Source of the DNA: an uncultured delta proteobacterium | Lineage (GTDB): Bacteria > Desulfobacterota > Binatia > Binatales > Binataceae | DNA length: 64,000 nt | Assembly: GCA_963724395.1 (NCBI GenBank) | Contig: CAVRUK010000006.1 | Span: 2,379,125-2,443,124 of the forward strand | Direction: 5' to 3' | In this document: positions 6,483 through 52,486 of the stretch, in pieces | Numbering within the stretch: position 1 is the first letter of the stretch | How the letters are laid out: each line of letters starts with the position of its first letter | Made by a program: the position numbers and the translations under genes | The notes under the pieces: model-generated | Seen by the model: the letters and a program-made list of their open reading frames with translations, nothing else | The model's database searches: none | What the model was told of the DNA's origin: nothing

Positions 6483-7715
6483 GTGAAAATCTATCCCCTA
6501 ATCCCTCTCCTTGCACTCGCGATACTGCTCGCCAGCTGTAACGGCGGCGGCGGAGGCTCGCAGTCTTCGCCGGCGACCTCCGGCATCGTTCACTTCGTTC
6601 CCAACTCGCACGCGTTCTGGAGCGATCCGTCGAACTGGACGACCAGCTTCGGCCCCGCCTATGCCGACATCACGCTCGCGTCGAGCAACTTCGTGCCGTG
6701 CCGGGGCGGACCCTACGCGCTCTGCTATTACTCCGGCCCTGGCTCTGGCGCCGAAGACCTCTCATGCACGATGACCGCGGACGGCAATTACGCCAACTGC
6801 CAATGCTTCGACATTCCGTACGGCGTCTACTTCGTCGACATCAACGCCATTCTCAACCACGACATCTACGAAAAGACCATCGCGCAATGCGGCGCCGACG
6901 GCAGCCTCTGCGCGACGCTCAACTCGGCCCCGGTATGCGCCAACGTCAACGCAGGAAATCTGATTCCCGGCACGAGCGTCTACTCGACCTTCAGCTTCGA
7001 TTGCGTCCCCGAAAACGGACTCGGCCTGACCAACTGCGCGACCGCGCCGTACGCCGGATGCATGACCGCGCCGTGTTTCAAAACCACGCAAGCCGGCATC
7101 GTCAATTGTTCGTGCCCGGTCTTCAACGGTCCCTACCAGGTCGGCCAGAACGACCAGGCATGCATGCTCGGCAGCGACCTCGTATGGTCGGCGGCCTACG
7201 CTCCCGCCGCAACGCCTACGGCCACGCCCCTGCCACCCAGCTTCTCAGCAATGCCCGCTAACTCGCGCGCCGCCGCGCCCGGCGCCGTTCCCAGCCCGGG
7301 AACCTGCCTGCCCGACGCGCCCGGCGGCTTCGGATGCTCGCTCTACGTCCCCGGCGTCACGATGCTGCCGGCCGACAGCGGCGTCGATTGCGCCAAGGTC
7401 TGCGACGAATACCATACCTGCCTTCAACCGAAAGGCGCGCAGGCCGGCTTCACCTGCGATGCCACGCTATGCACCGACGAATGCAACGATCGCGACCTGG
7501 TGAGCGTCGCATGCGACGGACTCGCCGGATGCGACATTTCCGAAATCGTCAAAGCCGAAACCGCCGCCGAATGCAGTTGCTGCGCAAGCCAGCTATGCGG
7601 CTGCGACCCCAGCCCGGAAACCAACCAGGCGATCAGCGCCCTGAATCAACAGCAACGCGAGCGCGGCATCAAGCCGCAATGCGACATCAACGGCACCTTG
7701 TGCGGCTCCCCGTGA
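6483..7715 (+). CDS. cysteine-rich secreted lipoprotein, function unknown
   Basis: Signal peptide plus lipobox (LLASC); about 40 Cys in 410 aa with CxC/CxxC spacing; no recognisable enzymatic motif. Confidence 0.6.
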   Translation: MKIYPLIPLLALAILLASCNGGGGGSQSSPATSGIVHFVPNSHAFWSDPSNWTTSFGPAYADITLASSNFVPCRGGPYALCYYSGPGSGAEDLSCTMTADGNYANCQCFDIPYGVYFVDINAILNHDIYEKTIAQCGADGSLCATLNSAPVCANVNAGNLIPGTSVYSTFSFDCVPENGLGLTNCATAPYAGCMTAPCFKTTQAGIVNCSCPVFNGPYQVGQNDQACMLGSDLVWSAAYAPAATPTATPLPPSFSAMPANSRAAAPGAVPSPGTCLPDAPGGFGCSLYVPGVTMLPADSGVDCAKVCDEYHTCLQPKGAQAGFTCDATLCTDECNDRDLVSVACDGLAGCDISEIVKAETAAECSCCASQLCGCDPSPETNQAISALNQQQRERGIKPQCDINGTLCGSP

Positions 7716-12357: not shown

Positions 12358-12533
12358 CTAGACATTGTAGCTTTCGGACTGTTTAACTGGATACTCAAGC
12401 AACTCGCCGCCGCGGCGTCAAAACCGGGGAATTGCTGCTGCATGGGTTGAAGATCGGGGCGGGTTTTGAAAAGCTCTCGGCGCGGCGAATTCGCTTTTGC
12501 GCTTTATCACTTTATTACTGCATCGCTCAAACG

Positions 12534-13778
12534 ATGAAAAAAATCATGGCAATGCTGCTCGGCGCGGCAATGATTGTGGCCGCAGCCGCGGCGGGTGCGC
12601 ATGCGGAGGCGGAACGGCTCAGGATCGGGGTCGGCGTGATCGGACCGATCTCACCGCAGACCGAGGCCGATATCGACACGCTGGTCGGCAAGCTGCCGAA
12701 CGTGACGGCGGTGCCGATTCAGCCGCCGGGCGGGGTCGACGCATGCGTCAAGCGATTCGTCGCGGGCGAGGCGGACGATCGGCTCGACGCGGTGATGGTC
12801 GTGAGCCTGCCGACCGAGTCATTTCAATCGCAGCGCGACTCGAACGAGGCGCGATTCACCGGCGCTTACGAAATCTGGACGCTCAATCTTTCGACGCTGG
12901 TCGAAGACCGCCATCGCTTCACCTTTACCGACAGCGAGGCGGTGATCGGCGGCTTGTCCGCGTTCCTGGCGCTGCCGGCACAGGCGTTCGCCGAGCGCGC
13001 CACGGGTAAAAAGCTCATCTCGAGCGATCAGTGGCAGGCGTTCGAGGCGGTGCAGACGCGCGTCGAGGCCAAGCTGGTCGCGGCGACCAAGCTCTACCTG
13101 GAAACGGCGTCGATCCGCGACACCGGTCCGCTGAATCCGCTCGAGACGGCGAAAGCGCTGCTCGATCGCGGCGATGGCGAGGACGCGATGGCGGTCTTCA
13201 AGTCGGCGGGCGGCGTCAACAATCCCGAGGTTCAGCGAATGATCGCGAACGCGCAGGGCCAGTTGCGGCGCAGTGCGGCGAATGCGCTGCTGGGACGCAC
13301 GCTCGGGGCGATGGCGGGCGGGAACGCGGGCGCGGCGCGCGTCATGCTGGCCGACTATGAGAAGGCCCCGTCGGCCGAGAGCTCGCGTGCGGATTCGATT
13401 CGCCGGGTGCTGGCGGATGTGCCCGACCATCGCGCGGAATCGATTTATGACGGCGTCATGAGGAGCGACGTGCCCGCGCTCGACCATCAGGCGTTCATCG
13501 CAATGATCAAGCAGGTCTTCATCGAGCAGACCGGCTCGGCGCCGAACGACGTGATCGTCAGCGGCAAAGACCTCGTGATCGAAGACAAGGACGCGCCGCA
13601 GGGGCTCAAGCAGCAGCTTGACAGTTACGCGGCCGCGCTCGGACGCAGCGCGTGGCTGATGAGCCTCAAGTGCGGATGCGACGCGGGCGCGGTGCTCGAG
13701 AGCGAAGCGGTCGGCGAGGCGCTGCTCAAGGCGAAGTATTCACCCTCTTTCAAGCGGCCGCAGGTCGGGCTACCCTAG
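12534..13778 (+). CDS. secreted hypothetical protein
   Basis: Start moved to MKKIMAMLLGAAMIVAAAAAGAHA (signal peptide). Coding-like composition; no family recognised. Confidence 0.5.
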   Translation: MKKIMAMLLGAAMIVAAAAAGAHAEAERLRIGVGVIGPISPQTEADIDTLVGKLPNVTAVPIQPPGGVDACVKRFVAGEADDRLDAVMVVSLPTESFQSQRDSNEARFTGAYEIWTLNLSTLVEDRHRFTFTDSEAVIGGLSAFLALPAQAFAERATGKKLISSDQWQAFEAVQTRVEAKLVAATKLYLETASIRDTGPLNPLETAKALLDRGDGEDAMAVFKSAGGVNNPEVQRMIANAQGQLRRSAANALLGRTLGAMAGGNAGAARVMLADYEKAPSAESSRADSIRRVLADVPDHRAESIYDGVMRSDVPALDHQAFIAMIKQVFIEQTGSAPNDVIVSGKDLVIEDKDAPQGLKQQLDSYAAALGRSAWLMSLKCGCDAGAVLESEAVGEALLKAKYSPSFKRPQVGLP

Positions 13779-14018: not shown

Positions 14019-14369
14019 TCATAACAACGCTTCGAGCTTTTCCGGGGGACGCGCTATGATTGCGCGCTTGCCGCGAATGACGATTGGGCGCTGCATCAGC
14101 TCGGGATGCTCGAGCAGGAGCGCGATGACCGCCTGCTTGTCGACGTAGTCGGCGGGATTCAGCTTTAGCTCCTTGAAGCGCTTGTCCTTGCGGACCAGGT
14201 CGGCGACAGGATCGTCGAGCATGTCGATAATTTTACCTAGCGTCTCGCGACTCGGATGATCTTTCAGATATTCGATGATGTCGAACTCGACATCGCGCGC
14301 GCGGAGCATCTCGACGGCGCCGCGCGAGTTGCCTCAGCCAGGGTTGTGATACAGCGTTATGCGTTCCAT
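14019..14369 (-). CDS. arsC: arsenate reductase ArsC (glutaredoxin-coupled, E. coli R773 type) with in-frame TGA at the catalytic Cys position; putative selenoprotein
   Basis: Extending ORF 14019..14309 upstream in frame gives GAGGAAAACG-ATG at 14369 and the product 'MERITLYHNPG-U-GNSRGAVEMLRARDV...'. This aligns with E. coli ArsC 'ITIYHNPACGTSRNTLEMIR...PPSRDEL...LQHPILINRPIVV', with Cys12 replaced by TGA at 14334-14336. A GC-rich hairpin starts 3-4 nt after the TGA. Confidence 0.6.
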
Positions 14370-14460
14370 CGTTTTCCTCATTTTTCGAAGGCTGCGGTGA
14401 CCTCTCCACGCTAGAATAACGGGCGAGAGACCAGAGAGTACAGGCTTTGATGGAAATGCC

Positions 14461-15111
14461 GTGAGCGGCTACAATTCATCCGGTCGCGAAACCAATTGCC
14501 ATGGAGTCCTTGTGAAGAACATTTCTAATCGCGGGTCCAGCCGCCCTCTTCGTTTCGCGGCGGTTGCTCTATCGGTTGCGGTCGCCGCGGGTCTCGCTGC
14601 TGGAGCGCGGATTGCGGGCGCGGCGAATGTGAGCGGCTTGATGTCGTATCGCGATGGCAGGCCGGCGGACAAGCGCGAGCTTCATTATGAGAACCGTGCC
14701 ACGAGCGATATCTACGTCGCACCGACCAAGCCCGACGGCTCGTTCACGGCGGATCTGCCGCCAGGCGTCTACGATCTGCGCGCCGAACGCGGAGTAGTTC
14801 TCGCCAGCGGGATTCGCGTCGATGCCGCCGACGTCAATATCGGTCATGTCGTCGAGCCGGCGCCGCTGGACGTACGCCGCCCGTTCGAGCGTGAAGGCAT
14901 AGCGGAGGCGCTCGTCGAGAGCCCGGCGCCCGCGACTGCGAACTTGACTTCGGGACGTGCTATCGCGGCGATGAGATACGGGCACGAGGCGATTGCTCCA
15001 ATGGGAGCGCCGGGGACGCCGGCGCCGCAATCCACTCCGCTCGGCGAGCTGATGCCCGAAGCGGGCGCCTCACCTTCGACGATGGAAGTACCTGGTTACG
15101 TCGGACACTGA
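14461..15111 (+). CDS. secreted carboxypeptidase-regulatory-domain-like (beta-sandwich) protein
   Basis: Signal-peptide-like hydrophobic segment; 'DG.F.....PPGVYDLRAE..G' pattern typical of the CarboxypepD_reg fold. Exact start uncertain. Confidence 0.45.
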   Translation: MSGYNSSGRETNCHGVLVKNISNRGSSRPLRFAAVALSVAVAAGLAAGARIAGAANVSGLMSYRDGRPADKRELHYENRATSDIYVAPTKPDGSFTADLPPGVYDLRAERGVVLASGIRVDAADVNIGHVVEPAPLDVRRPFEREGIAEALVESPAPATANLTSGRAIAAMRYGHEAIAPMGAPGTPAPQSTPLGELMPEAGASPSTMEVPGYVGH

Positions 15112-15630: not shown

Positions 15631-17540
15631 GTGAATTTCCGGTTGCTGCAAAAGCTCGCGACCGCGGCCTGCGCGATTGCCGCGATTTACCTGCTCTCGA
15701 TTCTCGTCACGGGCGGCTACGCGGTGAATTTTGCCGGCGCCAGCTTCGACGCCGACAAGCTATGGCCCGCGATCGTGGCGATGCTGGGCTTCGCACTGCT
15801 GCGAACGTTCTTTCGGCATAGATCGATCGAAGGCGCGCTGCGGTCGAGTCCTGGATTTATCGTTTTCTCGGTTGCGCTGATCGTATTTCTCGCCAATGGC
15901 CGCACGATTTCCGGCGGCGACTCGGTGCCCGCGAAATATCTGCCGCTGAGCATCCTCGGCCACGGCAACTTCTACCTCGATCAACTGGCAACTTCAGGCG
16001 AGAAAAAAATCCCCTACTATCTATATGAGAGCGGCGGCCATTACGTGTCCGACTTTCCGGTCGGCGCCGCGCTGATGGCGCTGCCATTCTACGTGCCGTC
16101 AGTAGTGTGCGGCGTCAGCCCCAGCAGCAGGATTTTCTCCGAGCTCGAAAAAGTTTCCGCGGCGACTTTGGTGGCGCTCTCCGCCCTGCTGCTCTACCTG
16201 GCCGCCGTGCGCGTGACCGCCAACTGGATGGCGATGCTGCTGACGCTGCTCTACGCGTTGGGAACCACCAGTCTCAGCGTAAGCAGCCAGGCGCTGTGGC
16301 AGCATGCTCCCGCGCAGCTCGCGCTAGCCGCGGCGATCTATTGCCTGGTACGCGCACGCGACGATCCGCGCTGGGCGGGATACGCCGGGCTGCCGCTCGC
16401 CTTCGAGGTGATCACGCGTCCGGCCGATGCGCTGATCGCGGCGCCGCTCGGACTGTACGTGCTCGTCAGCTATCGTCGCGAGATCTGGGTGTTCATCGCA
16501 ACCGCGACCCCGCCGCTGCTTTTTCAACTGTGGTACAGCGCCGCCTACTTCGGCACGCCGTTTCGAATACAATTTCTCGCGCATCCGCAGTCGGCGGGCG
16601 GCCAGACCGCCGGCGTGGACGACACCGCTCGCGAAGGGATTGGCGGTAGTGTTATTCAGTCCCGGCCGCGGACTGCTTTTTCTACTCGCCGATTTTCATT
16701 CTCTCAATCGTCGGATTGGCGCTGGCGTGGCGGAGAAATGGCGACCTGCTGCTGCGCTACCTCAGCGTCGGCGCGATTTTGAGCATATTGGTGGTCGCCA
16801 AATGGCGTACGTCCTCCGGTGGCGAGTCCTTCGGCCCGCGACTGCTCGCGGATCTGTCACCGATAATGGCGTTCGCGCTGTTTCCGCTCAAGGATTCCAT
16901 CCGCAATCGACGCGCGCTCGCGGTCGCCTTCGCATTGCTTGGCGCATGGTCGATAACCGCCAACGGTTTTGGCGCGTTTATCAGTTATCGGGGATGGAAC
17001 CGCTGGGCGCTCAACGATGCCGACACGCGACTGTGGTTGTGGGGCGACAATCCGGTCGTCGATCCGTTTCGCTCGCTTCTCGACTCGATCAGAATTGCGC
17101 TGGCTCATCGTCCAACCAGCCGAAGCTCGCCCGACCTGCTCGATGCCCGCTTCATCGTGCTCGATCCGCCTCGACCCGATGCCGCGCCGGGAGCGCACGT
17201 CCGCGTTGCCCTGCGCGCAACCAACACCGGCAAGGCGGTCTGGCTCACGGGGCGTTCACCGGATGAACCCGGTGTGGTCAGCCTGGGATGGGAGTGGAAG
17301 CGCGAGGGTAAGGCGGTCGGCGAGAGCGAAGCGCGGCGCGAGCTTCACCTGAACGTATTTCCGGACGACTCGATGGATGTACAGGCATCCGCGCTGGCGC
17401 CCGATGCGCCCGGCCAGTACGAGCTGGAAGTTTCGCTCGCGGCGGGAACCGGAAACCATGCGCCTCGTACAATTGGGCTGCCCTTGACGGTTCCGATAAC
17501 GGTCGTCGGCGCCGACGCGGCATCCGGCAGCGCGCCGTAA
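15631..17540 (+). pseudogene. polytopic membrane GT-C-like glycosyltransferase with C-terminal periplasmic beta-sandwich domain; reading frame interrupted by an apparent single-nucleotide frameshift near 16650-16700
   Basis: The membrane-protein signal is continuous in frame 1 up to about 16660 and then continues in frame 0 ('...YSPIFILSIVGLALAWRRNG...'). The third overlapping ORF is Arg-rich nonsense. This is either a genuine disruption or a sequencing indel. Confidence 0.45.
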
Positions 17541-30962: not shown

Positions 30963-32558
30963 TTATGAGCGGCTATCTGAAAGTCGGAGCGCCAGGTAGT
31001 GACCGATCCGCTGACGCCAGAGATTCCTGTCACCTGCCCGCAATACCAGCGCGCCGGCGTATATGACTGCGGCAACGTTTGCCGCCAGGAATTCGAGTGT
31101 GAATGGAATCCAGCCGGCCGCGACTCCTCTGCGATGCGCCACGTACCAGATAAGTGCCGTCCAGGGCAGGGCTATCAGCGTCGCGCGGGCCGTCTCGCGG
31201 GCGACTGCGGGCGCTTCCACCCCGAAACGTCGGCAATAGACCCGAACGTCGTACCACGCATCGGTCGCGCAAAATGCGATCACTGTGGCGAGCGTCACTC
31301 CATATAGCCCCAGCCATTCCCCTAACAGGAAGCTAAGGCTGAGGTTCATTATTGAACCGGTGGTACTCACCCAGACGCGGTCGCGCGTGTGACCTTGCAT
31401 GTCGATCAAGAACGAGAACAGCGCCAGGAAACCAAACAGGACGCCCTGTATAGATGTGAGCAACGCAAGGCGATCCCCAGCGTAATGCTCGGCGCCTACC
31501 CATAAACTCACAAAGCGTGCGTCATAGGCGGCCGCGGTGAGACCTACAGCCATCCCAAAGCCCACCACGAAGCGGACCAGTTCCAGCGTCCGCTCCTGAA
31601 GCAATGCGGGTCTTTCGCTTGCGAGAATTTCAGACAGTCCCGCCCAACTCGCGCCGGCTACCGCGGCGAAGCTCTGAGACACCGAAGCGACCAGCCTCTG
31701 TGTCACGATGAAGGACGTCACTGCTGCCGGGGCCGCAACCAGCGCCACGACGATGTAGTCCGTCATCAGGTTGATTTGGTTGCCAGTCCCGACCACCGTG
31801 AAGGACCGCCGCAATCTGTTCAAGCGCGCGCGATCTACCTCGGCAGGTGGAGCCCGCAGGAAACCCGGCACGTAACGCAAGGCGAACAACGCGAGCACGA
31901 TCGCGGAAACTCCGCTCGCCGCGACGAATGCGATCGACTGGCCCACCAGTCCGTAACCCAGCCACGCGAGCCCTACCCCAAGCGCCATCCAGGCCAGAGA
32001 TTGTAAAAGAGACGCTATCGTCTGTAAGTAGCTTCGCTGCAAGCAGCCCAACACTGAGCCTAGGAACTGCGGTGCGCCAAGCGGAACCGCCGCCACACCT
32101 ACCAAGCTCGCGATTCGAAGCTCATTACGCATACCTGGCGTAACCGGCACCACTACTGGCATGAGCCACGCCAGCAACACAGATGCTGGAAGAACTACGA
32201 CCAGCGATTGCCGCAAGATTAGCTTGAGGGCCGTCCGGGTCAGTCCTGCTAATCGGAGAAGTTGTCCGCGGCCCGCCCACTCTAATGCGAGTACGCATAG
32301 CGCTGAGTCGAGACCGAAATACAAGTAACCCGCGTAGCCACTCCATTGCTGCGAAGCCCGCAGTGCGCCGAAGCGCTCGCTACCGAGGTAACGGATCAGT
32401 AGCGGCGTCGCGACGAACCCCGCGAGCATCACCGCCGCAGTCCGGATCATGGTGGCCAGCATCGCGAGCGCGGCCAGCGCCGTGCGACCCGAGCCGTGTG
32501 ACGGCGGGGTGCCGGCGTCTTCGTTAGAAGGCGTTTCTATATTGCTGTGGACTTCCAA
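30963..32558 (-). CDS. wzx: polysaccharide flippase (Wzx-like, MOP superfamily)
   Basis: About 12-14 predicted TM helices with polysaccharide biosynthesis protein (MOP) pattern. Start uncertain; an internal M at residue 33-37 is possible. Confidence 0.7.
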   Translation of the reverse strand: MEVHSNIETPSNEDAGTPPSHGSGRTALAALAMLATMIRTAAVMLAGFVATPLLIRYLGSERFGALRASQQWSGYAGYLYFGLDSALCVLALEWAGRGQLLRLAGLTRTALKLILRQSLVVVLPASVLLAWLMPVVVPVTPGMRNELRIASLVGVAAVPLGAPQFLGSVLGCLQRSYLQTIASLLQSLAWMALGVGLAWLGYGLVGQSIAFVAASGVSAIVLALFALRYVPGFLRAPPAEVDRARLNRLRRSFTVVGTGNQINLMTDYIVVALVAAPAAVTSFIVTQRLVASVSQSFAAVAGASWAGLSEILASERPALLQERTLELVRFVVGFGMAVGLTAAAYDARFVSLWVGAEHYAGDRLALLTSIQGVLFGFLALFSFLIDMQGHTRDRVWVSTTGSIMNLSLSFLLGEWLGLYGVTLATVIAFCATDAWYDVRVYCRRFGVEAPAVARETARATLIALPWTALIWYVAHRRGVAAGWIPFTLEFLAANVAAVIYAGALVLRAGDRNLWRQRIGHYLALRLSDSRS

Positions 32559-32570
32559 GCTGGCAGACCC

Positions 32571-33707
32571 TCAAGCCGGCTCGCAGCTCGAGGCGAGAAT
32601 CTCGCGCGCCATGTCATCCCACGTGTACTGCCGCAACTGACGGGACAAGGGGATCACGCGCTGCTTCCATAGTTCGAGTTGCGAACGCCACAAAAGCAGC
32701 TTCTCAACCAACTCTTCCACCCGTTCCGGATCGTCAAGAAGGTGGTTCCCGAGTTCGGCCGGATAACGTTCCGCGACCCCGGCGCCGGCGCTCACGATCG
32801 CGGGGATCCCGCAGCATAGGGCTTCGTGGACGTTGAGCCCATACGCCTCGTAGCGCACCGGCGAGACCAGCAGGTCGCAGGCACGCAACAGTAGCGGCAC
32901 GTCACGGCGAAAGCCGAGAAAATGAATGCGCCGCTCCATCCCTGATCGGTCGGTCCTCTCTCGCCATATAGGAGCTTCCGCCCCCGTGCCGATAACGACT
33001 AATTCTGCGTCCCACCGGAGATCGCCGCAGAGAATCTTCCACGCCTCGAAAAGTGTGTCGAACCCCTTCCGCCGGTCCCCGATAGCCCCGACGAACGCTA
33101 CCATCGGCGTCCCGTCATTCCATCCGAGTCCGCGCCGAATCGCCGCGCGCTCGTCAGGCGATGCGGGCCGGAACAGCTCCGGATCTGTGCCGTAGTAAAT
33201 TGTGCGCACTTTGGAGCGAGGGATGCCCGGCCGCCCTTCCAGATCCTCGCGCGTGCGGTTCGAGTTGGTAATCACGATATGGGCGCGACTCAGCGCGCGG
33301 CGTTCGCCGGTGCGTGCCATCCGGTTTGAAAGCGCAAGCTTGATTCGATGTACCAGCCCGGCGCTCGTTTCGCGTCGATAAGCAGCGTGCACATAATGCA
33401 CCCAGTTGACATCATCCCAGATACAATTCCCGCCGTTGGCGATTACCTTACCGCCGCGTTGAGAGATCCGACGTGCCCACCTGCGCCCGATTCGATCGAG
33501 CAGCGGCGCCGCCAACATGTATGAACGAGCCAGCTTGGGCACGCGATGCACTATCACGTTGGGGCGCATAGCGAGTTCCGGATCTACTCTGTACGCAACC
33601 AGATGCGTCTCGGCGCCGCGTTCGGCCACGTATCGCGCCAGCGCGTAGTTGGCGCGGTCCATCCCTCCCGTCTTGACGAAGTCTCCGGTGACAATGAGGT
33701 ACGGCTT
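32571..33707 (-). CDS. glycosyltransferase family 4
   Basis: GT4 motifs ('MKPYLIVTGDF..GGMDRANY', 'EAYGLNVHEALCCGIPAIV'). Start at MKPYL gives a TGATG overlap with the upstream gene's stop. Confidence 0.8.
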   Translation of the reverse strand, partial: KPYLIVTGDFVKTGGMDRANYALARYVAERGAETHLVAYRVDPELAMRPNVIVHRVPKLARSYMLAAPLLDRIGRRWARRISQRGGKVIANGGNCIWDDVNWVHYVHAAYRRETSAGLVHRIKLALSNRMARTGERRALSRAHIVITNSNRTREDLEGRPGIPRSKVRTIYYGTDPELFRPASPDERAAIRRGLGWNDGTPMVAFVGAIGDRRKGFDTLFEAWKILCGDLRWDAELVVIGTGAEAPIWRERTDRSGMERRIHFLGFRRDVPLLLRACDLLVSPVRYEAYGLNVHEALCCGIPAIVSAGAGVAERYPAELGNHLLDDPERVEELVEKLLLWRSQLELWKQRVIPLSRQLRQYTWDDMAREILASSCEPA

Positions 33708-35134
33708 CATCGACCCCGCATTTGATTGGAACTTTCCTGGGCGTTCGAAAGAGCCACCGCAAACAGGATCGCGTTCAACATCCAGAACTCCATTCCCATC
33801 TGGCTGCCGAAAAAAGGATAGCCAAGAGAAGTACCCACCGCCCCGACGTCGTATGCGCAAATCACCGCCGCCAGGATAGCCATTTCCGGATCGATTCGCG
33901 CCAGCGACAGCCTGAAGGCAAACAGGGTCGTCACCGCGATTGCGTAGAGGTAAACAAGGATCAGGGGAATGCCCCCGTCCACCAACCAGGCGGTGAACTG
34001 CTCTTCCGCCCAGATGCTGGCGGTGTTGGGATCGGAATTGTCGCCGAAGTAATGATTCATCATCCCCCAGCGCCCCAGTCCTGCGCCGAGCGGATACTGG
34101 GGCAGGAGTTCCTCGATCGAGTACTCGATGAAATGACCGCGATTCTCATGATAGACGGTTCCGGGGTCGGCCGCCGTAAGTGTGGCGAATCGGTCGGCGA
34201 CCTCATTGCCCCCGACCGCGATTGCCCAGGTGAAGCCGAAAAACGCGACCACGCCGAGCACCGCGAGCAGCCGGGTCAAGGTTCCGGCTTCGTACCTGCG
34301 CCAGGCAGGCAGGGTCGCGCGAACCCTCGCGCGCCTGATGGCCAGGATGATGGTCAGCACGGCGGCGCAGATAACCAACATCACCAAACACGACCGCACG
34401 TGAGAGAGAAAAATAGCGGCCAGGCCCACCAGCATCGTTCCGATCGCAACCATTCTGCTCGACCACTTCCTCCATGTCAGCATGAAGCCCGCGCCGAACA
34501 GCACCGCGTAAATGCCCGCCGTTCCGGATCCGCCGGGGGAGTCCGTCAGCCCCATCGCGCGGAACACCTGTTCCCCGTACGCGTTCCGGAACTGCAGGCC
34601 TCTCATATAGGCTCTGCCCTGGTTGAGGATGACCGTGGAAATAGCAGGTTCGAATCGCCCCGGGTAGTAAACCTGCACGATACCGAGCAGGGCGCTCAAC
34701 GATTGGAATATCCAAATCAGAAGCAGCACGCGGCGCAGACTCGTCACATCGACCGACAGGCGCGGAACCCAGAACACCGGACCCAGTATCGCCAGGTACA
34801 TCGCGATTTGTGCCGCGCCGGCAGCCAACGTGTTGGTGGTCGGATTGAAAAACTCCAGCGCAACAATAGCCATTACGAACTTTGCCGGCTTGACTGCGGG
34901 CGAAGGCGTCCCCTTGCCACGCAGCCCGAATAGAAGCGCGATGCTGGTGCCAAATACCGCCATTCGTACAACCACCCGGACCTGTCCGATTGAGCCCGAG
35001 AGCAACGCGACCTGGCACACGAATCCCAGCGCGAACATCAGTTCTACCGCGTGCGTGCGGAGGAAGGTCACTGAAGCGCGCCGGCGTTCCTGCGCGTATC
35101 GGTTCTCGGTATATGAGGCCGCTCCGGAGGTCAT
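33707..35134 (-). CDS. O-antigen ligase/polymerase-like membrane protein (Wzy_C-type)
   Basis: Polytopic with a large loop; resembles Wzy/O-antigen ligase family proteins. Confidence 0.6.
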   Translation of the reverse strand: MTSGAASYTENRYAQERRRASVTFLRTHAVELMFALGFVCQVALLSGSIGQVRVVVRMAVFGTSIALLFGLRGKGTPSPAVKPAKFVMAIVALEFFNPTTNTLAAGAAQIAMYLAILGPVFWVPRLSVDVTSLRRVLLLIWIFQSLSALLGIVQVYYPGRFEPAISTVILNQGRAYMRGLQFRNAYGEQVFRAMGLTDSPGGSGTAGIYAVLFGAGFMLTWRKWSSRMVAIGTMLVGLAAIFLSHVRSCLVMLVICAAVLTIILAIRRARVRATLPAWRRYEAGTLTRLLAVLGVVAFFGFTWAIAVGGNEVADRFATLTAADPGTVYHENRGHFIEYSIEELLPQYPLGAGLGRWGMMNHYFGDNSDPNTASIWAEEQFTAWLVDGGIPLILVYLYAIAVTTLFAFRLSLARIDPEMAILAAVICAYDVGAVGTSLGYPFFGSQMGMEFWMLNAILFAVALSNAQESSNQMRGR

Positions 35135-35228: not shown

Positions 35229-36833
35229 TCAATCGCCGTGCACGGCGCCGGTAGGCGACGGTCGATCGAAACCCCGGCCATCTACCGCCATCTCAGGCTG
35301 CGGTTGGCCTCGCGCGTAAACGTCAAAATACACCCCTCGAAATACAATCGGAGCGTCGCGAACTGATTGTTGGAACGCGGGATTGCGCCACTGGGACAAC
35401 TGGTCTCCTGGTTGCTGAAGTGTAGGCGCTATAATGAAGCGCGCTGACGACATTTGCGCCAGCTCTCGACTGGATTCGGCCGCGACGCCGACGCCCATAT
35501 CCATGAATACTTTCACGGGCCTGCGGAGCCACGGAAACAGAGCCTCTCCGCCGCCGTCCCAGGTGAACAACACCGCGTTGGCGCCCACCAATCCCTGAAT
35601 CTTATGCCACTCCGCAGCTTCCTGCGGCGGGGCAAATAGTCCGGCGGTGGCGCTATCGTGAACCATCGTTTGCCAGGCGCGCAGACCGCTTTTGACGGCA
35701 CTGAAATTCGCGACGGCAGCCACTACACTGAGAATCCAGACCATTCTCGCGCTCAAGGCGTTCCATGTTTCGGTCGTCAGAATTGCGAAAAACAGAATAT
35801 ACACATAGTACCGCCAGGCATTGTACGGACCAAAAAACAGTCCAACGAACGCGAAGTGCAGGACTGCGCAACTAAGTGCGATTTCCCAATTTCGTGGCAA
35901 CTTGCTTTTATGAACCAGACAGGTCCAGAGCGTGGCGGCGAGCGTCCCTAAAATATAGAGGCTACCCAGGCACCATACGGTAACGGGAGTGCCCAGGTAG
36001 TACCCAAGTCTCACTCCGGGAAAGTGGAAAAACTGGGTCGCACCGCCACGCCATCCCCAGTGCATCGCCGTATAGATTTGTGCTCCGTCAAAGGGCAACA
36101 GAGTCTTTAGCGCTACAGAAGGGCCGTAAACCGCCGCCGAGAGCGACAACAGCGCCAGACCGGTGAAGGCAGCCGGAGCCATCGCACGGGCAAGTTCTAC
36201 GGGCTTGACTCCGCCGTCCCGCGCTAACGAGCGCACTATCAATACCAGTAGTAAGAACCCATAGACGTAACCCATGCTTGGCTTCGCGAAACAAGCAGCC
36301 GTTGCGAAGGCTAGCGCGCCGCTACGCTGGCCGCGTCCGTGAAGCACCAGCGCGGCGGCGAGGAGCACCGGCTCGGTCGCATGCACAACATCCCAAGTGA
36401 GAACGTCGCAAATGAACGGCATGCTCACTGCCATCAGCACCCACCCGGCGGCGCGGCTTTGGTCGCCTGCAAAGCACGCAACCAGGACTGCGAACACCGC
36501 GATTAAGAGGGCCGATAGGGCGAGTTGCGCGGCCGGGCCAACGCCCCAGAGAAGGAACCAAAGATGCTGTCCGAGGAGCGGCAGAACGCCGTACGGCCAG
36601 CCAAAATCTACCGCGACTACGAAGTTGTGCCTTAGCAGGTAGTCAGCAGTCAGAAAGCCCCCGGGGGTGAGAAATGCATACGATTCGAAATTGTAGAGAA
36701 GCGGCCACTCCACGACCCAAACGGCGCACAACTCTAAAATCAGCACCAGCGCGAATAGCCACGGCACGCGCCCAGACCGAGGGCGTTCCAGCGTGTATCG
36801 GTTCTCGGCGTAGGCTGCCGCTGCAGAGGTCAT
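35229..36833 (-). CDS. polytopic membrane protein, possible GT-C-like glycosyltransferase or polymerase
   Basis: More than 10 TM helices. Start placed at MTSAAAAY, paralogous to the start of 33707..35134. Confidence 0.5.
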   Translation of the reverse strand: MTSAAAAYAENRYTLERPRSGRVPWLFALVLILELCAVWVVEWPLLYNFESYAFLTPGGFLTADYLLRHNFVVAVDFGWPYGVLPLLGQHLWFLLWGVGPAAQLALSALLIAVFAVLVACFAGDQSRAAGWVLMAVSMPFICDVLTWDVVHATEPVLLAAALVLHGRGQRSGALAFATAACFAKPSMGYVYGFLLLVLIVRSLARDGGVKPVELARAMAPAAFTGLALLSLSAAVYGPSVALKTLLPFDGAQIYTAMHWGWRGGATQFFHFPGVRLGYYLGTPVTVWCLGSLYILGTLAATLWTCLVHKSKLPRNWEIALSCAVLHFAFVGLFFGPYNAWRYYVYILFFAILTTETWNALSARMVWILSVVAAVANFSAVKSGLRAWQTMVHDSATAGLFAPPQEAAEWHKIQGLVGANAVLFTWDGGGEALFPWLRRPVKVFMDMGVGVAAESSRELAQMSSARFIIAPTLQQPGDQLSQWRNPAFQQSVRDAPIVFRGVYFDVYARGQPQPEMAVDGRGFDRPSPTGAVHGD

Positions 36834-36900
36834 CTCAAGGCCCTGATCGGCGATGTCATTCACCCGGTGACCGGCCTCGGCTTCGCATTGCTTAGCCTCG

Positions 36901-41367: not shown

Positions 41368-44238
41368 CTAGGGGGTTTGCGCTCCGGCCTGTGCGGGACC
41401 GGCGTTGGCAAACTTTTTGTGGAAAGAGTCGAAGCTCGATTTGTAATTCTCGTTATCCGGCGCTAGTTGGACCGCACGCGCATAGGCCTTGTCGGCGTCG
41501 GCGTAGTTGTATGCTTGCTCGTCCGCCTGCGCCAGTGAGTAGTAGGCCGGCGCCGAATCCGGGTCTAACTGGATCGCCCTGCCGAGCGTGATCACGGCCT
41601 GGTTGAAATCGCGATTGTGAGCGTAGAGGGTGCCGAGCCGGAGCATCACGTCGAACGAGTCCGGGCGCTCAGCGGCAATTTGCTTGATCGCGTCGATCGC
41701 CGACGGAAGGTCGCCCATCTCCTCCGCGGCATCCGCCTGCAGCAACTCCATCGCGTAACGGTCGACTCCGTTGTCGATGGCCTGGGCGATCGTGCTCTTG
41801 ATCCCTGCCATGTCCTTCTGCCGCGCGTATACGTCCCTTGCCAGCCCGTAATACGCGTTCGGATTGTCGGGCTCGATTGCGATCGCTTTTTCCAGCAAAG
41901 ACCGCGCGCGTTTGAAGTCGCGCCCTCGCGACGCAGCGTCAGCAGCGTTCATCAGGTCCAGGTACTGGGTATGAGAATCGCGTGCGTGTTGCGCGCCGTC
42001 GGCGTAAAGCGACGCTTCGTCGGAATATTTTCCGACCCCGTCATCCAGGGTGGCCGCCGCCGTGAGTGCGCCGGGGATCTGCTCGGCACTCGCGCGCGCG
42101 ATTCCGCGTTCGATCGCGCTGCGTTCATCCTGCGATAGCCAGCCGATGATCCGATCCGACATATAAGGATGCGTCCGCGGCCACGGCGAGTTGAATACTG
42201 AAAGTTCGATCTGCTTGAGCGCGTCCGCATTTCTGCCGGCCGCCGCAAGTTCCCGCATGTATGCGTCGCGCGTGTAAGGATTCATGGGATCGAGTGCGAC
42301 CGCGATCTCCCACTCGCGGATACGGTCTGGAAGCCGCATGCGAGCGCCGAGAAAATCGACCGTCGCTACATGCGAAAATGCGTTGGCCGGGTACAGCAGC
42401 AGCATCCACTTTGCCTGCGCGACGGAACTGGGCGGCTCCAGATTGTACGGATACGCAATCGCGGGTTGCGCGAACGTCGCCGCGAGCAGCGCGACGGCCG
42501 ATATCGGCACCCAGATTCGCGCAAACACGCCGCGCGGTACTTCGAACGCGTCAGCATCCCCGTCGACGGTCCACGACCACGAGACCCTGACCGCGAGGCC
42601 GAGAATCATCGCAAAGAAAAAAGCGATCGCTGGAATCTGCAGATCGAAATCAAAAAACTCAACCACGCACATGATCGCCAGCGCCCCCACCAGCGCTGCC
42701 TGGACCGGCACGATCTTCCCGGGCAACTGCGCGAACCTGCGATAGATGAAGCTGCCGGCACGCAGGATGAACCACGCCGCCAGCACCAGCCCGGCCACTC
42801 CGGTCTCCGCGATCAGTTGCAGATAGTCGTTGTGCGCCTCTGAAAGGTACAGTTCCGACCACGGCCGTGCGCGGTATCGCGTGAACAGCTCGGGCCACGT
42901 CCGAAGGCCCATTCCCACCGCGGGAAAATCCTCGACTATCTTGAGTCCGTTGGCCCATCCACTTGTCCGGTCCGGCAAAGCGGCGTCGACCTCCAGAGAA
43001 TACTGCACGCGCGCAGTCACCTGGGTCCTGCCGCTCGCTCCGATGAACGACATCGCCAGCACCAGCATGCACGACGCTCCCACCAGCGCGATTCGGCGCG
43101 AACGCACGGTACCTTTGCTGCCTTCCTCCTGGCGGGAGGTCAGAACCATCACCAGCAACACGCCGAGCGCGAGACCCGTCCAGCCGGCCCGCGACTGGCT
43201 CATCAGAATCGCGGCCATCAGTACGAACGACGTCACGCCGCATGCTATGCGGTACCCATTCGACCACCGCGAAGAAATCAACGGGCTGCCAAAGAACGTT
43301 CCCGAAATCGCGAGCGGGAAAATCATCGAGAGGAAGCCGGCGAAATGATCGGGGTCAACAAACGGACCGCTGGCCCGCGGCATGATACCCGATTGCGGAG
43401 CGCCCCAATCGAGCGGCACGAAAAACCACAGAATCCTGCCGTTCCAGGTCGCTTGCTGAACCAGCCCAAGCGTCGCGATCCCCAGCCCCACCGCAAGAAA
43501 GACCGTCATCACGGTGCCGACAAACCAATCACGCTCTACCGTGGAAGCGATTGCACCAACGGGAACGAACGCCACCAGCATGAACAGCGCACCGCATGCC
43601 GCAAACAAAACCAATCCCGACCACGACAGCACCGGCGCGATCGAAAGAGGCCGCCACGTCGTCGAGTAGATTTTCGAAAGCCTCCGCAAGCTTCGATCTG
43701 AGGAACCGCTGCCTGCTTCGCTGGCGCCGTTACCCGCGTCGCTTCTTGCCGCCTGCGATCTCGGTGCAAATGGAATCGGCGCACCCGCCTTCACCTCGTC
43801 GACCGTCGGCAGCACCACGGTCCGAGCCTCTGTCCCCGAGGACGCCGGATGCTCCGGATTGAGAGAACCTTCCAGGCCCGCGTATGGAGATTGCGCGGGC
43901 CACCCGGGAAATACCTGCTGGTAAAGCGTGTAGGTGGATGGCGACAGGAAATGAACCGCCGCCGGTGGCAGCGGTATCAATTGCAGCAAAGCAAACGAGA
44001 GAAACGCTACGATCGGCATCGCGAAAGTTCGAATCTGGATTCGAAGTTCCGCAGGCTGCCCGTCACGCGCCGCGCGGCCGAAGGGCCACAGCAGCAGGAG
44101 CGCGAACGCCGATGCTTCGCCGATCTTGTAGGCCCACGGATGGACCGCCCCGAACGCCAGCGGCATGAACACGGCCAGAAAAACAATTCCAGCCATCAGC
44201 AGCGCCCGGCGCTTGCGGTTATCGTGCATGCGACTCAA
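41368..44238 (-). CDS. O-antigen ligase (Wzy_C) domain membrane protein fused to C-terminal TPR repeats
   Basis: Wzy_C-like core ('MSQSRAGWTGLALGVLLVMVL'); about 300 aa C-terminal TPR-like repeats ('AYYGLARDVYARQ', 'APAYYSLAQADEQ'). Confidence 0.75.
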   Translation of the reverse strand: MSRMHDNRKRRALLMAGIVFLAVFMPLAFGAVHPWAYKIGEASAFALLLLWPFGRAARDGQPAELRIQIRTFAMPIVAFLSFALLQLIPLPPAAVHFLSPSTYTLYQQVFPGWPAQSPYAGLEGSLNPEHPASSGTEARTVVLPTVDEVKAGAPIPFAPRSQAARSDAGNGASEAGSGSSDRSLRRLSKIYSTTWRPLSIAPVLSWSGLVLFAACGALFMLVAFVPVGAIASTVERDWFVGTVMTVFLAVGLGIATLGLVQQATWNGRILWFFVPLDWGAPQSGIMPRASGPFVDPDHFAGFLSMIFPLAISGTFFGSPLISSRWSNGYRIACGVTSFVLMAAILMSQSRAGWTGLALGVLLVMVLTSRQEEGSKGTVRSRRIALVGASCMLVLAMSFIGASGRTQVTARVQYSLEVDAALPDRTSGWANGLKIVEDFPAVGMGLRTWPELFTRYRARPWSELYLSEAHNDYLQLIAETGVAGLVLAAWFILRAGSFIYRRFAQLPGKIVPVQAALVGALAIMCVVEFFDFDLQIPAIAFFFAMILGLAVRVSWSWTVDGDADAFEVPRGVFARIWVPISAVALLAATFAQPAIAYPYNLEPPSSVAQAKWMLLLYPANAFSHVATVDFLGARMRLPDRIREWEIAVALDPMNPYTRDAYMRELAAAGRNADALKQIELSVFNSPWPRTHPYMSDRIIGWLSQDERSAIERGIARASAEQIPGALTAAATLDDGVGKYSDEASLYADGAQHARDSHTQYLDLMNAADAASRGRDFKRARSLLEKAIAIEPDNPNAYYGLARDVYARQKDMAGIKSTIAQAIDNGVDRYAMELLQADAAEEMGDLPSAIDAIKQIAAERPDSFDVMLRLGTLYAHNRDFNQAVITLGRAIQLDPDSAPAYYSLAQADEQAYNYADADKAYARAVQLAPDNENYKSSFDSFHKKFANAGPAQAGAQTP

Positions 44239-47992: not shown

Positions 47993-48438
47993 TTCGATTT
48001 CGAGACCCCTGCATCCGTTGCCGAGGCTCCCGCCTTTGCGATCGCCAGCGGCTGAGCCGTCGGCGACAACCCCCAATTTACGGTCAACCCTTCTGCGGGC
48101 ACATATGACATCACTGGCAGATATGACGTCACTGACTGACCCTTAAGCACCAGCGTGTAAGGACCCGGCTTGAGACCGCGTACTCGGTACGATCCTTCGC
48201 CATCGGTGACGACCGAACCTGCGCTTGCGCCGGATGAATCGAGCACCGAAACTTGAATCCCCACTGCGGGTTGTCCGGTCTCATTTGCGACGTGGCCGAC
48301 GACGTCCGCGCTCCATGCCGCCGCCGTCAGTATTATCGCGAACGCTCCAGTCATGGCCAATGTCGCGAGCGGTTTTCTCCGGGCACGCGTCCGCCCTCCC
48401 ATCGAGCGGGCCTTCCGATAAACGCCGTTAGAACTCAT
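47989..48438 (-). CDS. secreted carboxypeptidase-regulatory-domain-like protein
   Basis: Signal peptide; 'VSVLDSSGASAGSVVTDGEGSYRVRGLKPGPYTL' fold motif. Shares 'PAEGLT..W.LSPT' with 19885..20391. Confidence 0.5.
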   Translation of the reverse strand: MSSNGVYRKARSMGGRTRARRKPLATLAMTGAFAIILTAAAWSADVVGHVANETGQPAVGIQVSVLDSSGASAGSVVTDGEGSYRVRGLKPGPYTLVLKGQSVTSYLPVMSYVPAEGLTVNWGLSPTAQPLAIAKAGASATDAGVSKSK

Positions 48439-52019: not shown

Positions 52020-52486
52020 TCCTGATACCTTGCCGCGGACTCTCGGGCGATTGTCGTGCGTACTCAAACTCAAATCGTGATCGCGAATGACGCGGGCGGT
52101 GATCGAAAACATTCGAACATCACCTACAGTCTGCCATCATAATTCGGAAAGCGTAAGGCGGAAAAGTTCAGGGGGTAGGAAAAGCGAAAATTAAGCGGGA
52201 GACCAGCCGCACGGGCGGACCTTCAGGCAGACCAGGCGCGGCATAGAACGCCGCCGCTATCGGTCTTTCGGAAAGCGTCATGCGGAAAACGTCGAAACCG
52301 CTATCGTAAAATCGCAACCGGTGCCGAGGATAACCGGCGATATTCCCTGCTCACACCGTCCGGCAGCGCGGAAGCCGCGCGGAAGCCGCAAGGAAAAAGC
52401 CTGACCGGACTTTCAATTCCCGGAACGACCAGCCCCCGCCACCCATTTCTCCAAGCGCCGCCGCGATAGTCTCGACCGACTGAGAC

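What the first reader, a model, noticed from the sequence alone, without database searches (positions are those of the whole stretch)
14019..14369. Arsenate reductase ArsC with in-frame TGA at the catalytic cysteine: a putative selenoprotein the ORF track misses
The annotated ORF 14019..14309 starts at an internal Met. Reading upstream in the same frame crosses one TGA at 14334-14336 and then reaches an ATG at 14367-14369. That ATG is preceded by a strong Shine-Dalgarno (GAGGAAAACG) and an upstream stop.

The assembled product is 'MERITLYHNPG-U-GNSRGAVEMLRARDVEFDIIEYLKDHPSRETL...LEHPELMQRPIVI...'. It aligns along its length with E. coli R773 ArsC ('ITIYHNPAC12GTSRNTLEMIR...PPSRDEL...LQHPILINRPIVV'). 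The TGA sits exactly at the nucleophilic Cys12.

Immediately 3' of the TGA the mRNA can form a GC-rich stem-loop (AACUCGCGCGG...CCGCGCG..CGAGUU), as a bacterial SECIS would. Together the conserved 5' extension, a genuine RBS only at the upstream ATG, and the TGA at the catalytic residue argue for Sec read-through rather than a truncated gene.
Basis: partly seen in the sequence, partly recalled or inferred. Interest (0 to 1): 0.65.

Follow-up and report, generated by a model that had tools for sequence, protein, structure and literature searches.

The report
Selenocysteine ArsC gene, mis-called as truncated
This is a real gene for a small arsenate-reductase-type enzyme whose catalytic cysteine is replaced by selenocysteine (encoded by an in-frame TGA); the enzyme family is already known, but the RNA hairpin that appears to direct the recoding is not the one first proposed and sits unusually far downstream.

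Summary
On the minus strand, a 116-codon ArsC-family ORF (14369..14019) carries TGA at codon 12 (14336..14334), aligned residue-for-residue with the catalytic Cys12 of R773 ArsC. Gene callers report only the 96-aa tail.

Across 80 orthologous loci (mostly Binatia MAGs), 44 have TGA and 36 have TGC/TGT at this codon, at the same chromosomal locus. The 11 codons before the TGA are under protein-level selection, and the internal Met is not conserved. TGA is also the normal stop of this gene. Pseudogene, sequencing error and internal start are excluded.

The conserved element is an 18-nt hairpin, GAUGUCG-AGUU-CGACAUC (14294..14277). It has compensatory changes in 4 of 7 pairs and a GU-containing loop, and it is present in 44/45 Sec forms and mostly lost in Cys forms. 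It lies 46 nt from the UGA, outside the 16–37 nt bSECIS consensus, and a GC-rich spacer hairpin bridges the gap.

"Arsenate reductase, UxxS" has been a catalogued selenoprotein family since 2005, so this is a new member of a known kind with a non-canonical SECIS layout. The Sec machinery (selA/B/C/D) could not be checked.

The parts
14019..14369 (-). Full coding sequence of the ArsC-family selenoprotein: 116 codons plus stop, with Sec at codon 12
   Evidence: Translation. TIGR00014 arsC match over residues 4-116, 101.3 bits. Pfam PF03960. Alignment of residues 1-111 to R773 ArsC structures. 80 orthologous loci of the same length.
14375..14379 (-). Shine-Dalgarno-like GAGGA, 5 nt upstream of the start codon
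   Evidence: Sequence. An SD-like motif lies within -16..-4 of codon 1 in 42/45 Sec-type genes, against 6/45 before codon 21.
14367..14369 (-). True start codon ATG
   Evidence: ATG at this aligned position in 42/45 Sec-type orthologues. Protein conservation begins here and the upstream sequence is unconstrained.
14334..14336 (-). In-frame TGA = selenocysteine codon 12 (motif U-G-N-S)
   Evidence: TGA in 44/80 loci and TGC/TGT in 36/80 at the same aligned codon. Aligns with catalytic Cys12 of R773 ArsC.
14307..14309 (-). Internal ATG (Met21) wrongly used as the start by ORF callers
   Evidence: ORF list. Public collections hold the 96-aa product. Codon 21 is ATG in only 12/45 Sec-type genes.
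14295..14320 (-). GC-rich spacer hairpin between the UGA and the SECIS hairpin. Its base abuts the SECIS hairpin and its register varies among orthologues.
   Evidence: MFE fold of the window sequence. Per-sequence folds: mean -14.5 kcal/mol in Sec forms vs -10.3 in Cys forms. Synonymous-resampling z = -1.33 vs -0.42. Its role in function is inferred.
14277..14294 (-). Candidate SECIS core: 7-bp stem with AGUU tetraloop (GAUGUCG-AGUU-CGACAUC), encoded by codons D-V-E-F-D-I; loop at 14287..14284
   Evidence: At least 6 contiguous pairs in 44/45 Sec forms vs 8/36 Cys forms, and the loop always contains GU. It is the only consensus helix found by RNAalifold. 96.1% of cells paired, 4/7 pairs with compensatory changes, 0/500 shuffles as good. 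Synonymous sites of codons +15..+17 are 100% fixed in Sec forms. z = -2.32 vs synonymous resampling.
14190..14192 (-). Arg60 codon (anion-site arginine of Grx-type ArsC)
   Evidence: Alignment to 1I9D/1JZW; sequence.
14088..14090 (-). Arg94 codon
   Evidence: Alignment to 1I9D/1JZW; sequence.
14049..14051 (-). Arg107 codon
   Evidence: Alignment to 1I9D/1JZW; sequence.
14019..14021 (-). Terminal TGA stop codon of the same gene
   Evidence: Sequence and translation. 28/45 Sec-type orthologues also end in TGA, so UGA is an ordinary stop in these genomes and recoding at codon 12 must depend on context.

Best explanation
The locus encodes a 116-residue glutaredoxin-type ArsC-family reductase in which the nucleophile is selenocysteine (Sec12, motif U-G-N-S), not Cys12.

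Translation starts at ATG 14369 behind a GAGGA Shine-Dalgarno. UGA at codon 12 is decoded as Sec, and the gene ends at an ordinary UGA stop.

Recoding is directed by a coding-region bacterial SECIS. Its SelB-binding core is most likely the 7-bp AGUU-tetraloop hairpin at 14294..14277, 46 nt after the UGA. The intervening 39 nt fold into a GC-rich hairpin whose base abuts the SECIS hairpin. This would bring the SECIS hairpin to roughly the canonical position at the ribosome's mRNA entrance when the UGA is in the A site.

The enzyme is expected to act like R773 ArsC. An oxyanion is bound by Arg60/Arg94/Arg107, attacked by the selenolate, and resolved by glutathione and glutaredoxin.

Shown here: gene structure, orthologous TGA/Cys alternation, coding constraint across the TGA, and hairpin covariation specific to the TGA forms. 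Inferred: that Sec (rather than another residue) is inserted, SelB binding, the role of the spacer hairpin, and arsenate as substrate.
For: Family and active site:
- TIGR00014 arsC hit over the full length, 101.3 bits; Pfam ArsC.
- Alignment to R773 ArsC structures puts the TGA on Cys12, with Arg60/94/107 kept.

Comparative evidence for recoding:
- 44 TGA vs 36 TGC/TGT at the same codon in 80 loci.
- The loci are syntenic: rpmB is convergent downstream in 32/44 Sec and 21/36 Cys loci.
- Sec and Cys forms are interleaved on the tree, with at least 12 switches.
- N-terminal 11 codons have syn:nonsyn 3150:3143, against 708:9381 for the upstream control. The start ATG and an SD-like motif occur in 42/45. 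The internal Met occurs in 12/45. 28/45 genes end in TGA.

SECIS hairpin:
- At least 6 bp in 44/45 Sec forms vs 8/36 Cys forms; GU in every loop.
- It is the only RNAalifold consensus helix.
- 4/7 pairs have compensatory changes, 96.1% of cells are paired, and 0/500 shuffles reach this.
- Synonymous sites are frozen only in Sec forms.
- P(hairpin) is 0.80 in Sec forms vs 0.13 in Cys forms.
- Synonymous-resampling z for Sec forms: hairpin -2.32, spacer -1.33, control region +0.15.

Literature: the family is already catalogued as a selenoprotein with a UxxS motif (PMC1088965; PMC13188914).
Against: - No Sec machinery was seen. There is no tRNA in the window, and no selA/B/D homologue or tRNA-Sec in the 532 kb held. 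The window's larger ORFs are housekeeping and exopolysaccharide genes. This is uninformative, because only 64 kb of a multi-megabase genome is available.
- The hairpin's spacing (46 nt to the loop) lies outside the 16-37 nt of the consensus bSECIS model (PMC13188914).
- Single-sequence folding is not significant (z = -0.15).
- The TIGR00014 score is just under the curated cutoff (101.3 vs 106.05), and no ars operon is nearby, so arsenate as substrate is uncertain.
- The Sec-vs-Cys statistics are not corrected for phylogeny.
Confidence: 0.88

Rival explanations
1. UGA12 is read through without the Sec system. A near-cognate or suppressor tRNA inserts Trp, Cys or Arg, with the downstream hairpins acting as a generic read-through stimulator rather than a SelB-binding SECIS.
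For: No Sec machinery could be demonstrated. The hairpin spacing is outside the canonical bSECIS range (coordinates vs PMC13188914).
Against: - The recoded position is precisely the catalytic nucleophile, and it alternates only with Cys codons. This is the signature of Sec/Cys pairs.
- The loop carries the conserved G-U of bSECIS loops in all 45 Sec forms.
- The same protein family is an established selenoprotein family (PMC1088965, PMC13188914).
- Trp or Arg at the nucleophile would inactivate the enzyme.
Confidence: 0.05
2. The SECIS is the stem-loop proposed by the first reader (AACUCGCGCGG...CCGCGCG..CGAGUU, immediately 3' of the UGA), or another hairpin at the canonical 16-37 nt spacing such as the spacer hairpin itself.
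For: The complementary segments exist. In 3 of 35 non-redundant Sec sequences (L005, L008, L013) the MFE fold uses the AACUCG/CGAGUU pairing. The spacer hairpin's loop lies about 24 nt from the UGA, inside the canonical range.
Against:
- An exhaustive helix scan finds no conserved helix at canonical spacing.
- The spacer hairpin's register and loop sequence vary, and the loop usually lacks a G in its first two positions.
Confidence: 0.04
3. The gene is a pseudogene or carries a sequencing or assembly error at codon 12. Alternatively, the functional product is the 96-aa protein starting at the internal Met.
For: Gene callers and public databases report the 96-aa ORF.
Against: - The same TGA is found in 44 independent genomes down to about 55-60% identity.
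- There is purifying selection on the 11 codons before it, and the ATG and SD are conserved.
- Met21 is present in only 12/45 Sec forms, with an SD-like motif in 6/45.
- The 96-aa product would lack the first 20 residues, including the HNPxC/U-G-x-S-R active-site stretch that aligns with R773 ArsC.
Confidence: 0.01

Closest known systems
Sec-containing arsenate reductase selenoprotein family (UxxS motif; COG1393/TIGR00014), first reported from the Sargasso Sea metagenome (PMC1088965), listed in the 2026 selenoproteome review (PMC13188914) and mentioned in the BSepDB paper (PMC13326102)
   Same: ArsC fold family. Sec replaces the catalytic Cys. The motif is U-x-x-S (here U-G-N-S). Cys-containing orthologues are widespread. 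There is a coding-region stem-loop downstream of the UGA with a G in a small apical loop.
   Different: The host lineage is soil Binatia (Candidatus Binatus/Binataceae MAGs) rather than marine plankton. The covariation-supported hairpin lies 46 nt from the UGA behind a spacer hairpin, outside the 16-37 nt consensus used to predict SECIS elements in that family. Whether the published members share this layout could not be checked, because figures are not held.
E. coli plasmid R773 ArsC, glutaredoxin-coupled arsenate reductase (PDB 1I9D, 1JZW)
   Same: Collinear alignment over residues 1-111 (E = 6e-18). The nucleophile is at position 12. The Arg60/Arg94/Arg107 anion-binding triad is retained.
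   Different: Sec replaces Cys12. The protein is about 25 residues shorter at the C-terminus (116 vs 141 aa). It is not in an ars operon; it sits between rpmB and an unknown ORF in a housekeeping region. The TIGR00014 score is slightly below the equivalog cutoff, so the substrate is unproven.
Consensus bacterial SECIS model (bSECISearch; summarised in PMC13188914) and the E. coli fdhF SECIS
   Same: Located in the coding region 3' of the UGA. The upper stem is 7 bp (allowed 4-16). The apical loop is 4 nt (allowed 3-9), with G in position 2 followed by U. The hairpin energy is -8.5 kcal/mol (threshold -7.5).
   Different: The spacing from the UGA to the apical loop is 46 nt, against 16-37 nt. 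An additional selected hairpin occupies the spacer. No bulged U like that of fdhF is present (from memory of the E. coli element).
Spx/MgsR and YffB-type ArsC-family proteins
   Same: Same Pfam family PF03960 and the same thioredoxin-like fold.
   Different: These score much lower here (TIGR01617 61 bits, cutoff 75; YffB NF008107 19.7 bits). The Spx CxxC motif is absent and the ArsC arginine triad is present.

Membership tests
Sec-containing arsenate reductase (UxxS) selenoprotein family | Homology to ArsC (COG1393 / PF03960 / TIGR00014) | tested here: met
   PF03960 53.7 bits (cutoff 24). TIGR00014 is the best NCBIfam hit, full length, 101.3 bits.
Sec-containing arsenate reductase (UxxS) selenoprotein family | In-frame UGA aligned with the catalytic Cys of Cys-containing homologues, with conservation on both sides | tested here: met
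   44 TGA and 36 TGY at the same codon in 80 loci. Aligned to Cys12 of R773 ArsC. Coding constraint upstream of the TGA.
Sec-containing arsenate reductase (UxxS) selenoprotein family | UxxS redox motif | tested here: met
   U12-G13-N14-S15. The motif is as given in PMC1088965 Table 3.
Sec-containing arsenate reductase (UxxS) selenoprotein family | Sec-decoding machinery in the same genome (selA, selB, selC/tRNA-Sec, selD) | not testable with these tools
   Only 64 kb of the genome is available. There is no tRNA in the window, and no sel homologue or tRNA in the 532 kb held.
Consensus bacterial SECIS (bSECISearch model) | Stem-loop 3' of the UGA with a 4-16 bp upper stem, a 3-9 nt apical loop, G in the first two loop positions followed by G/U, and MFE <= -7.5 kcal/mol | tested here: met
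   7-bp stem, AGUU loop, -8.5 kcal/mol. Covariation in 4/7 pairs.
Consensus bacterial SECIS (bSECISearch model) | [quoted passage not shown] | tested here: not met
   46 nt (14333..14288) separate the UGA and the loop. No conserved helix exists at canonical spacing.
Glutaredoxin-coupled arsenate reductase (TIGR00014 equivalog, R773 ArsC type) | Score at or above the curated equivalog cutoff | tested here: not met
   101.3 bits vs cutoff 106.05, with U replaced by C. It is marginally below.
Glutaredoxin-coupled arsenate reductase (TIGR00014 equivalog, R773 ArsC type) | Catalytic nucleophile at position 12 plus the Arg60/Arg94/Arg107 triad | tested here: met
   Alignment to 1I9D/1JZW. The nucleophile is Sec instead of Cys.
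Glutaredoxin-coupled arsenate reductase (TIGR00014 equivalog, R773 ArsC type) | ars operon context (arsR, arsB/acr3, arsA/D). This is typical of the family but not strictly defining. | tested here: not met
   Neighbours are rpmB, two unknown ORFs, a VOC/glyoxalase protein, mutL, miaA and accA. No ars genes are among the window's larger ORFs.
Glutaredoxin-coupled arsenate reductase (TIGR00014 equivalog, R773 ArsC type) | Arsenate reductase activity dependent on GSH/Grx | not testable with these tools
   Requires an enzyme assay.
Arsenate reductase-like UxxC selenoprotein (NF041106) | Match to NF041106 and a UxxC motif | tested here: not met
   No NF041106 hit at E <= 1e-3. The motif is UxxS.
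Spx/MgsR regulators | CxxC motif and a score above the TIGR01617 cutoff | tested here: not met
   61.3 bits vs cutoff 75.05. There is no second Cys in the motif.

The most novel reading that the evidence does not exclude
The Sec-ArsC genes of Binatia and their relatives use a distinct two-hairpin class of bacterial SECIS. The SelB-binding GU-tetraloop hairpin lies 46 nt from the UGA, and a selected spacer hairpin folds away the extra distance. RNA pairing visibly dictates protein sequence, with the flanking residues changing in pairs (D..I, G..T, G..A, K..L, S..T). Gly at position 11 is obligatory in the Sec forms. If this is general, it would explain part of the roughly 13% of bacterial selenoprotein entries that lack a canonical SECIS, and it would provide a covariation-validated model to extend SECIS predictors.
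Probability: 0.5. Interest if true: 0.45.

Novelty: new member of a known kind. Interest (0 to 1): 0.35.

Why it matters
- **Annotation.** The gene is recorded in public collections as a 96-aa fragment lacking its active site. Dozens of Binatia genomes carry the same mis-call.
- **Sec use in Binatia.** The gene suggests that members of this uncultured soil lineage use selenocysteine. I found no paper linking the two.
- **Testing the SECIS model.** The 44 Sec and 36 Cys orthologues at one locus form a natural experiment. They isolate the RNA element that accompanies the UGA. That element is a covariation-supported hairpin at a spacing the standard bSECIS model does not allow, which is useful for improving selenoprotein gene finders.
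- **Limits.** It does not change the picture of selenoprotein biology. The family and the Sec/Cys exchange dynamics are already known.

Tried and rejected
- **Single-sequence folding of the 71 nt after the TGA.** z = -0.15 against dinucleotide shuffles. Uninformative in GC-rich coding sequence.
- **Rfam, gathering threshold on the window and permissive E-value scan on 14150..14450.** No SECIS family, only weak chance hits. Rfam appears to lack a general bacterial SECIS model (from memory), so this is uninformative.
No covariation. Rejected.
- **Exhaustive scan for any conserved helix at canonical spacing.** None found.
- **Alternative helix UUCGA-CAUCA-UCGAA (offsets +51..+65) overlapping the 3' arm.** Conserved, but only through one-sided changes and conserved I-E-Y codons. 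Not favoured.
- **Search for Sec machinery.** No tRNA in the window. No sel genes among the window's ORFs. ARAGORN and tblastn with E. coli SelA/SelB/SelD (sequences recalled from memory, used as probes only) on all 532 kb held found nothing.
- **Screen for other in-frame-TGA genes in the window.** Only artefacts of antisense frames. The striking 30963..34145 (-) case is two adjacent same-frame genes.
- **Other copies of the hairpin core in the window.** Two 1-mismatch matches, neither downstream of an in-frame TGA, and at chance level.
- **Exact-product contig look-up for provenance.** Nothing on record.
- **Database look-up of the U-containing sequence.** The tool does not accept U.
- **Literature on Binatia/Binatota and selenocysteine.** None found. 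No BSepDB supplements are held.

Full report
**What is in the sequence.** On the minus strand an ORF runs from ATG 14369..14367 to a TGA stop at 14021..14019. It is interrupted only by TGA at 14336..14334, which is codon 12. The mechanical ORF list reports just the 96-aa tail, starting at the internal ATG 14309. GAGGA (14379..14375) lies 5 nt upstream of the upstream ATG. With U replaced by C, the 116-aa product matches NCBIfam TIGR00014 (arsenate reductase, glutaredoxin type) over residues 4-116 at 101.3 bits, just below the curated cutoff of 106.05. It also matches Pfam ArsC. It aligns collinearly with the solved R773 ArsC structures (1I9D, 1JZW; E = 6e-18). The TGA falls on catalytic Cys12, and Arg60, Arg94 and Arg107 are retained. 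The "upstream stop" is 34 codons away, and a second in-frame ATG lies 4 codons upstream, so that detail carries little weight.

**Is the TGA real and translated?** A protein search returned close relatives from Candidatus Binatus/Binataceae. They are a mix of 116-aa Cys proteins and 96-aa "truncated" proteins. A scan of one genome per species returned 80 orthologous loci. At the aligned codon, 44 carry TGA and 36 carry TGC or TGT.

- **Same locus.** The Sec-type and Cys-type genes share a chromosomal site. rpmB is convergent downstream in 32/44 Sec and 21/36 Cys loci, and the same unknown ORF lies upstream.
- **Repeated switching.** The two types are interleaved on a neighbour-joining tree, with at least 12 switches by parsimony.
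- **True start.** In the Sec-type genes codon 1 is ATG in 42/45 and has an SD-like motif in 42/45. Codon 21 is ATG in only 12/45 and has an SD-like motif in 6/45.
- **Coding constraint before the TGA.** The 11 codons before the TGA show synonymous:nonsynonymous differences of 3150:3143. The 11 triplets upstream of the ATG show 708:9381.
- **UGA is an ordinary stop here.** 28/45 Sec-type genes, including this one, end in a TGA stop.

Together these exclude a pseudogene, a sequencing error, an internal start and genome-wide UGA reassignment. What remains is context-dependent recoding of a catalytic Cys position, which is the signature of selenocysteine.

**The recoding signal.** The 71 nt after the TGA fold no better than shuffles (z = -0.15). 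It is rejected.

Inspection of the aligned genes showed a different element. The 18 nt GAUGUCG-AGUU-CGACAUC (14294..14277, codons D-V-E-F-D-I) form a 7-bp hairpin.

| Measure | Sec-type genes | Cys-type genes |
|---|---|---|
| Genes with at least 6 contiguous pairs | 44/45 | 8/36 |
| Loop sequence | AGUU, CGUG or AGGU; always contains GU | GU mostly absent |
| Synonymous-site identity, V-E-F codons | 100% | 61-82% |
| Hairpin energy (kcal/mol) | -9.0 | -3.5 |
| Ensemble probability of the hairpin | 0.80 | 0.13 |
| z vs synonymous-codon resampling, hairpin | -2.32 | -0.70 |
| z vs synonymous-codon resampling, control region | +0.15 | -0.33 |

- RNAalifold returns this hairpin as the only consensus structure.
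- 96.1% of cells are paired and 4 of 7 pairs show compensatory changes. No shuffle out of 500 matches this, and slid controls pair at 9-66%.
- The compensatory changes alter the protein. The flanking residues change in pairs (D..I, G..T, G..A, K..L, S..T), so the RNA structure constrains the amino-acid sequence.
- The Sec-vs-Cys statistics are not phylogenetically corrected. The covariation counts and the repeated Sec/Cys switches make the conclusion robust all the same.

**Layout.** The hairpin meets the consensus bSECIS criteria for stem length, loop size, a G followed by U in the loop, and stability. Its loop, however, is 46 nt from the UGA, and the model allows 16-37 nt (PMC13188914). A scan of all possible helices found no conserved helix at canonical spacing. 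Instead, the 39-nt spacer folds in nearly every Sec-type sequence into a GC-rich hairpin whose base abuts the SECIS hairpin. In the window this spacer hairpin is 14320..14295. It is more stable in Sec than in Cys forms (-14.5 vs -10.3 kcal/mol; synonymous-resampling z = -1.33 vs -0.42). Lineages with a different peptide maintain it with different sequence, for example CCUUGA...UCAAGG in L048 and L057. Its register and loop are not conserved. I therefore infer that it acts as a structural spacer placing the SelB-binding hairpin near the mRNA entrance when the UGA is in the A site. That inference is not tested.

**Comparison with what is known.** Sec-containing "arsenate reductase" (COG1393/TIGR00014, motif UxxS) was reported among new selenoprotein families in the Sargasso Sea metagenome (PMC1088965). 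It is listed in the 2026 review (PMC13188914), and the BSepDB paper mentions the family (PMC13326102). The window's motif U-G-N-S fits. Frequent Sec/Cys exchange is also a known pattern. BSepDB reports canonical SECIS elements in 87.4% of entries, and this gene would belong to the remainder.

The finding is a new member of a known family in an uncultured soil lineage, with a non-canonical but well-supported SECIS layout. I found no paper connecting Binatia/Binatota with selenocysteine.

**Function.** The catalytic architecture of Grx-type ArsC is intact. The gene nevertheless stands alone among housekeeping genes (cmk, rpsA, tyrA, an aminotransferase, pheA, accA, miaA, mutL, rpmB) and next to a large exopolysaccharide cluster, with no ars operon. 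It also scores just under the equivalog cutoff. Arsenate reduction is the best guess but is unproven.

**What could not be done.** The Sec machinery of the genome could not be examined. The window has no tRNA.

**Verdict.** The proposed SECIS is replaced by a different, covarying hairpin. Novelty is a new member of a known kind, and interest is modest (0.35). That interest rests mainly on the clean natural experiment, which defines a long-spacing, two-hairpin bSECIS.

Noticed in passing
window 14337-14339 (codon 11) and the same codon in L001-L080: Residue 11, just before the Sec/Cys position, is Gly in all 44 Sec-type loci and in the window's gene (GGC/GGA/GGT). It is Gly in only 4/36 Cys-type genes (Ala 22, Ser 5, Val 5). 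The third codon base varies, so the constraint looks amino-acid-level or GG-level. The cause is unknown; possibilities are Sec insertion efficiency or active-site geometry.
   Followed up: partly
L072, L079, L044 (also L016, L039, L042): Sec-type arsC genes with the same hairpin occur in MAGs labelled Pseudomonadales (L072), Acidimicrobiia (L079) and Actinomycetes (L044, whose arsC segment is identical to that of L043). Other close relatives are labelled Acidiferrales or Gammaproteobacteria. This points to horizontal transfer or mis-binning.
   Followed up: no
window 30963-34145 (-): Two ORFs of more than 500 codons lie in the same frame, separated by a single TGA at 32571-32573, and look like a read-through candidate. 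Translation shows an ordinary glycosyltransferase end followed by a separate multi-pass membrane (Wzx-like) protein with its own start.
   Followed up: yes
window about 17500-57000: A roughly 40-kb exopolysaccharide/O-antigen-type cluster, almost all on the minus strand. It has many GT4 glycosyltransferases, three FkbM-type methyltransferases, a DegT aminotransferase, an acyltransferase, a Wzy-like ligase fused to TPR repeats (41368-44238), a Wzz/GNVR tyrosine-kinase-type protein (44305-46680), a polysaccharide export protein (46697-48076), a 1025-aa pectate-lyase-like protein (49035-52112) and a WecA-like/sugar-transferase fusion (55151-56983).
   Followed up: partly
window 14270-14285 (offsets +51..+65 from the TGA): An alternative 5-6 bp helix, UUCGA-CAUCA-UCGAA, overlaps the 3' arm of the SECIS hairpin and is mutually exclusive with it. 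It is highly conserved in the Sec forms but shows only one-sided changes, and the I-E-Y codons are conserved in Cys forms too. It could be an alternative conformer or a by-product of coding conservation.
   Followed up: partly
window 14379-14381: A second in-frame ATG lies four codons upstream of the conserved start (MRKT-MERI...) and overlaps the SD. It is present only in the closest relatives (L001, L002, L015), so it is unlikely to be the start.
   Followed up: partly
window 12432-13778 (+), 14461-15111 (+), 15631-16782 (+), 6483-7715 (+), 33707-35134 (-), 35229-36863 (-), 52487-53299 (-): Sizeable ORFs with no Pfam or NCBIfam match. The two that flank arsC (the 448-aa and 216-aa ORFs) are conserved next to arsC in most Binatia loci.
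   Followed up: no
P0124, P0001, L075, L012: Cys-type genes that still carry Gly11 (NPG-C-G) and/or an intact AGUU hairpin look like very recent TGA-to-TGY conversions. More diverged Cys forms have lost the hairpin, which gives a visible decay series after loss of Sec.
   Followed up: partly
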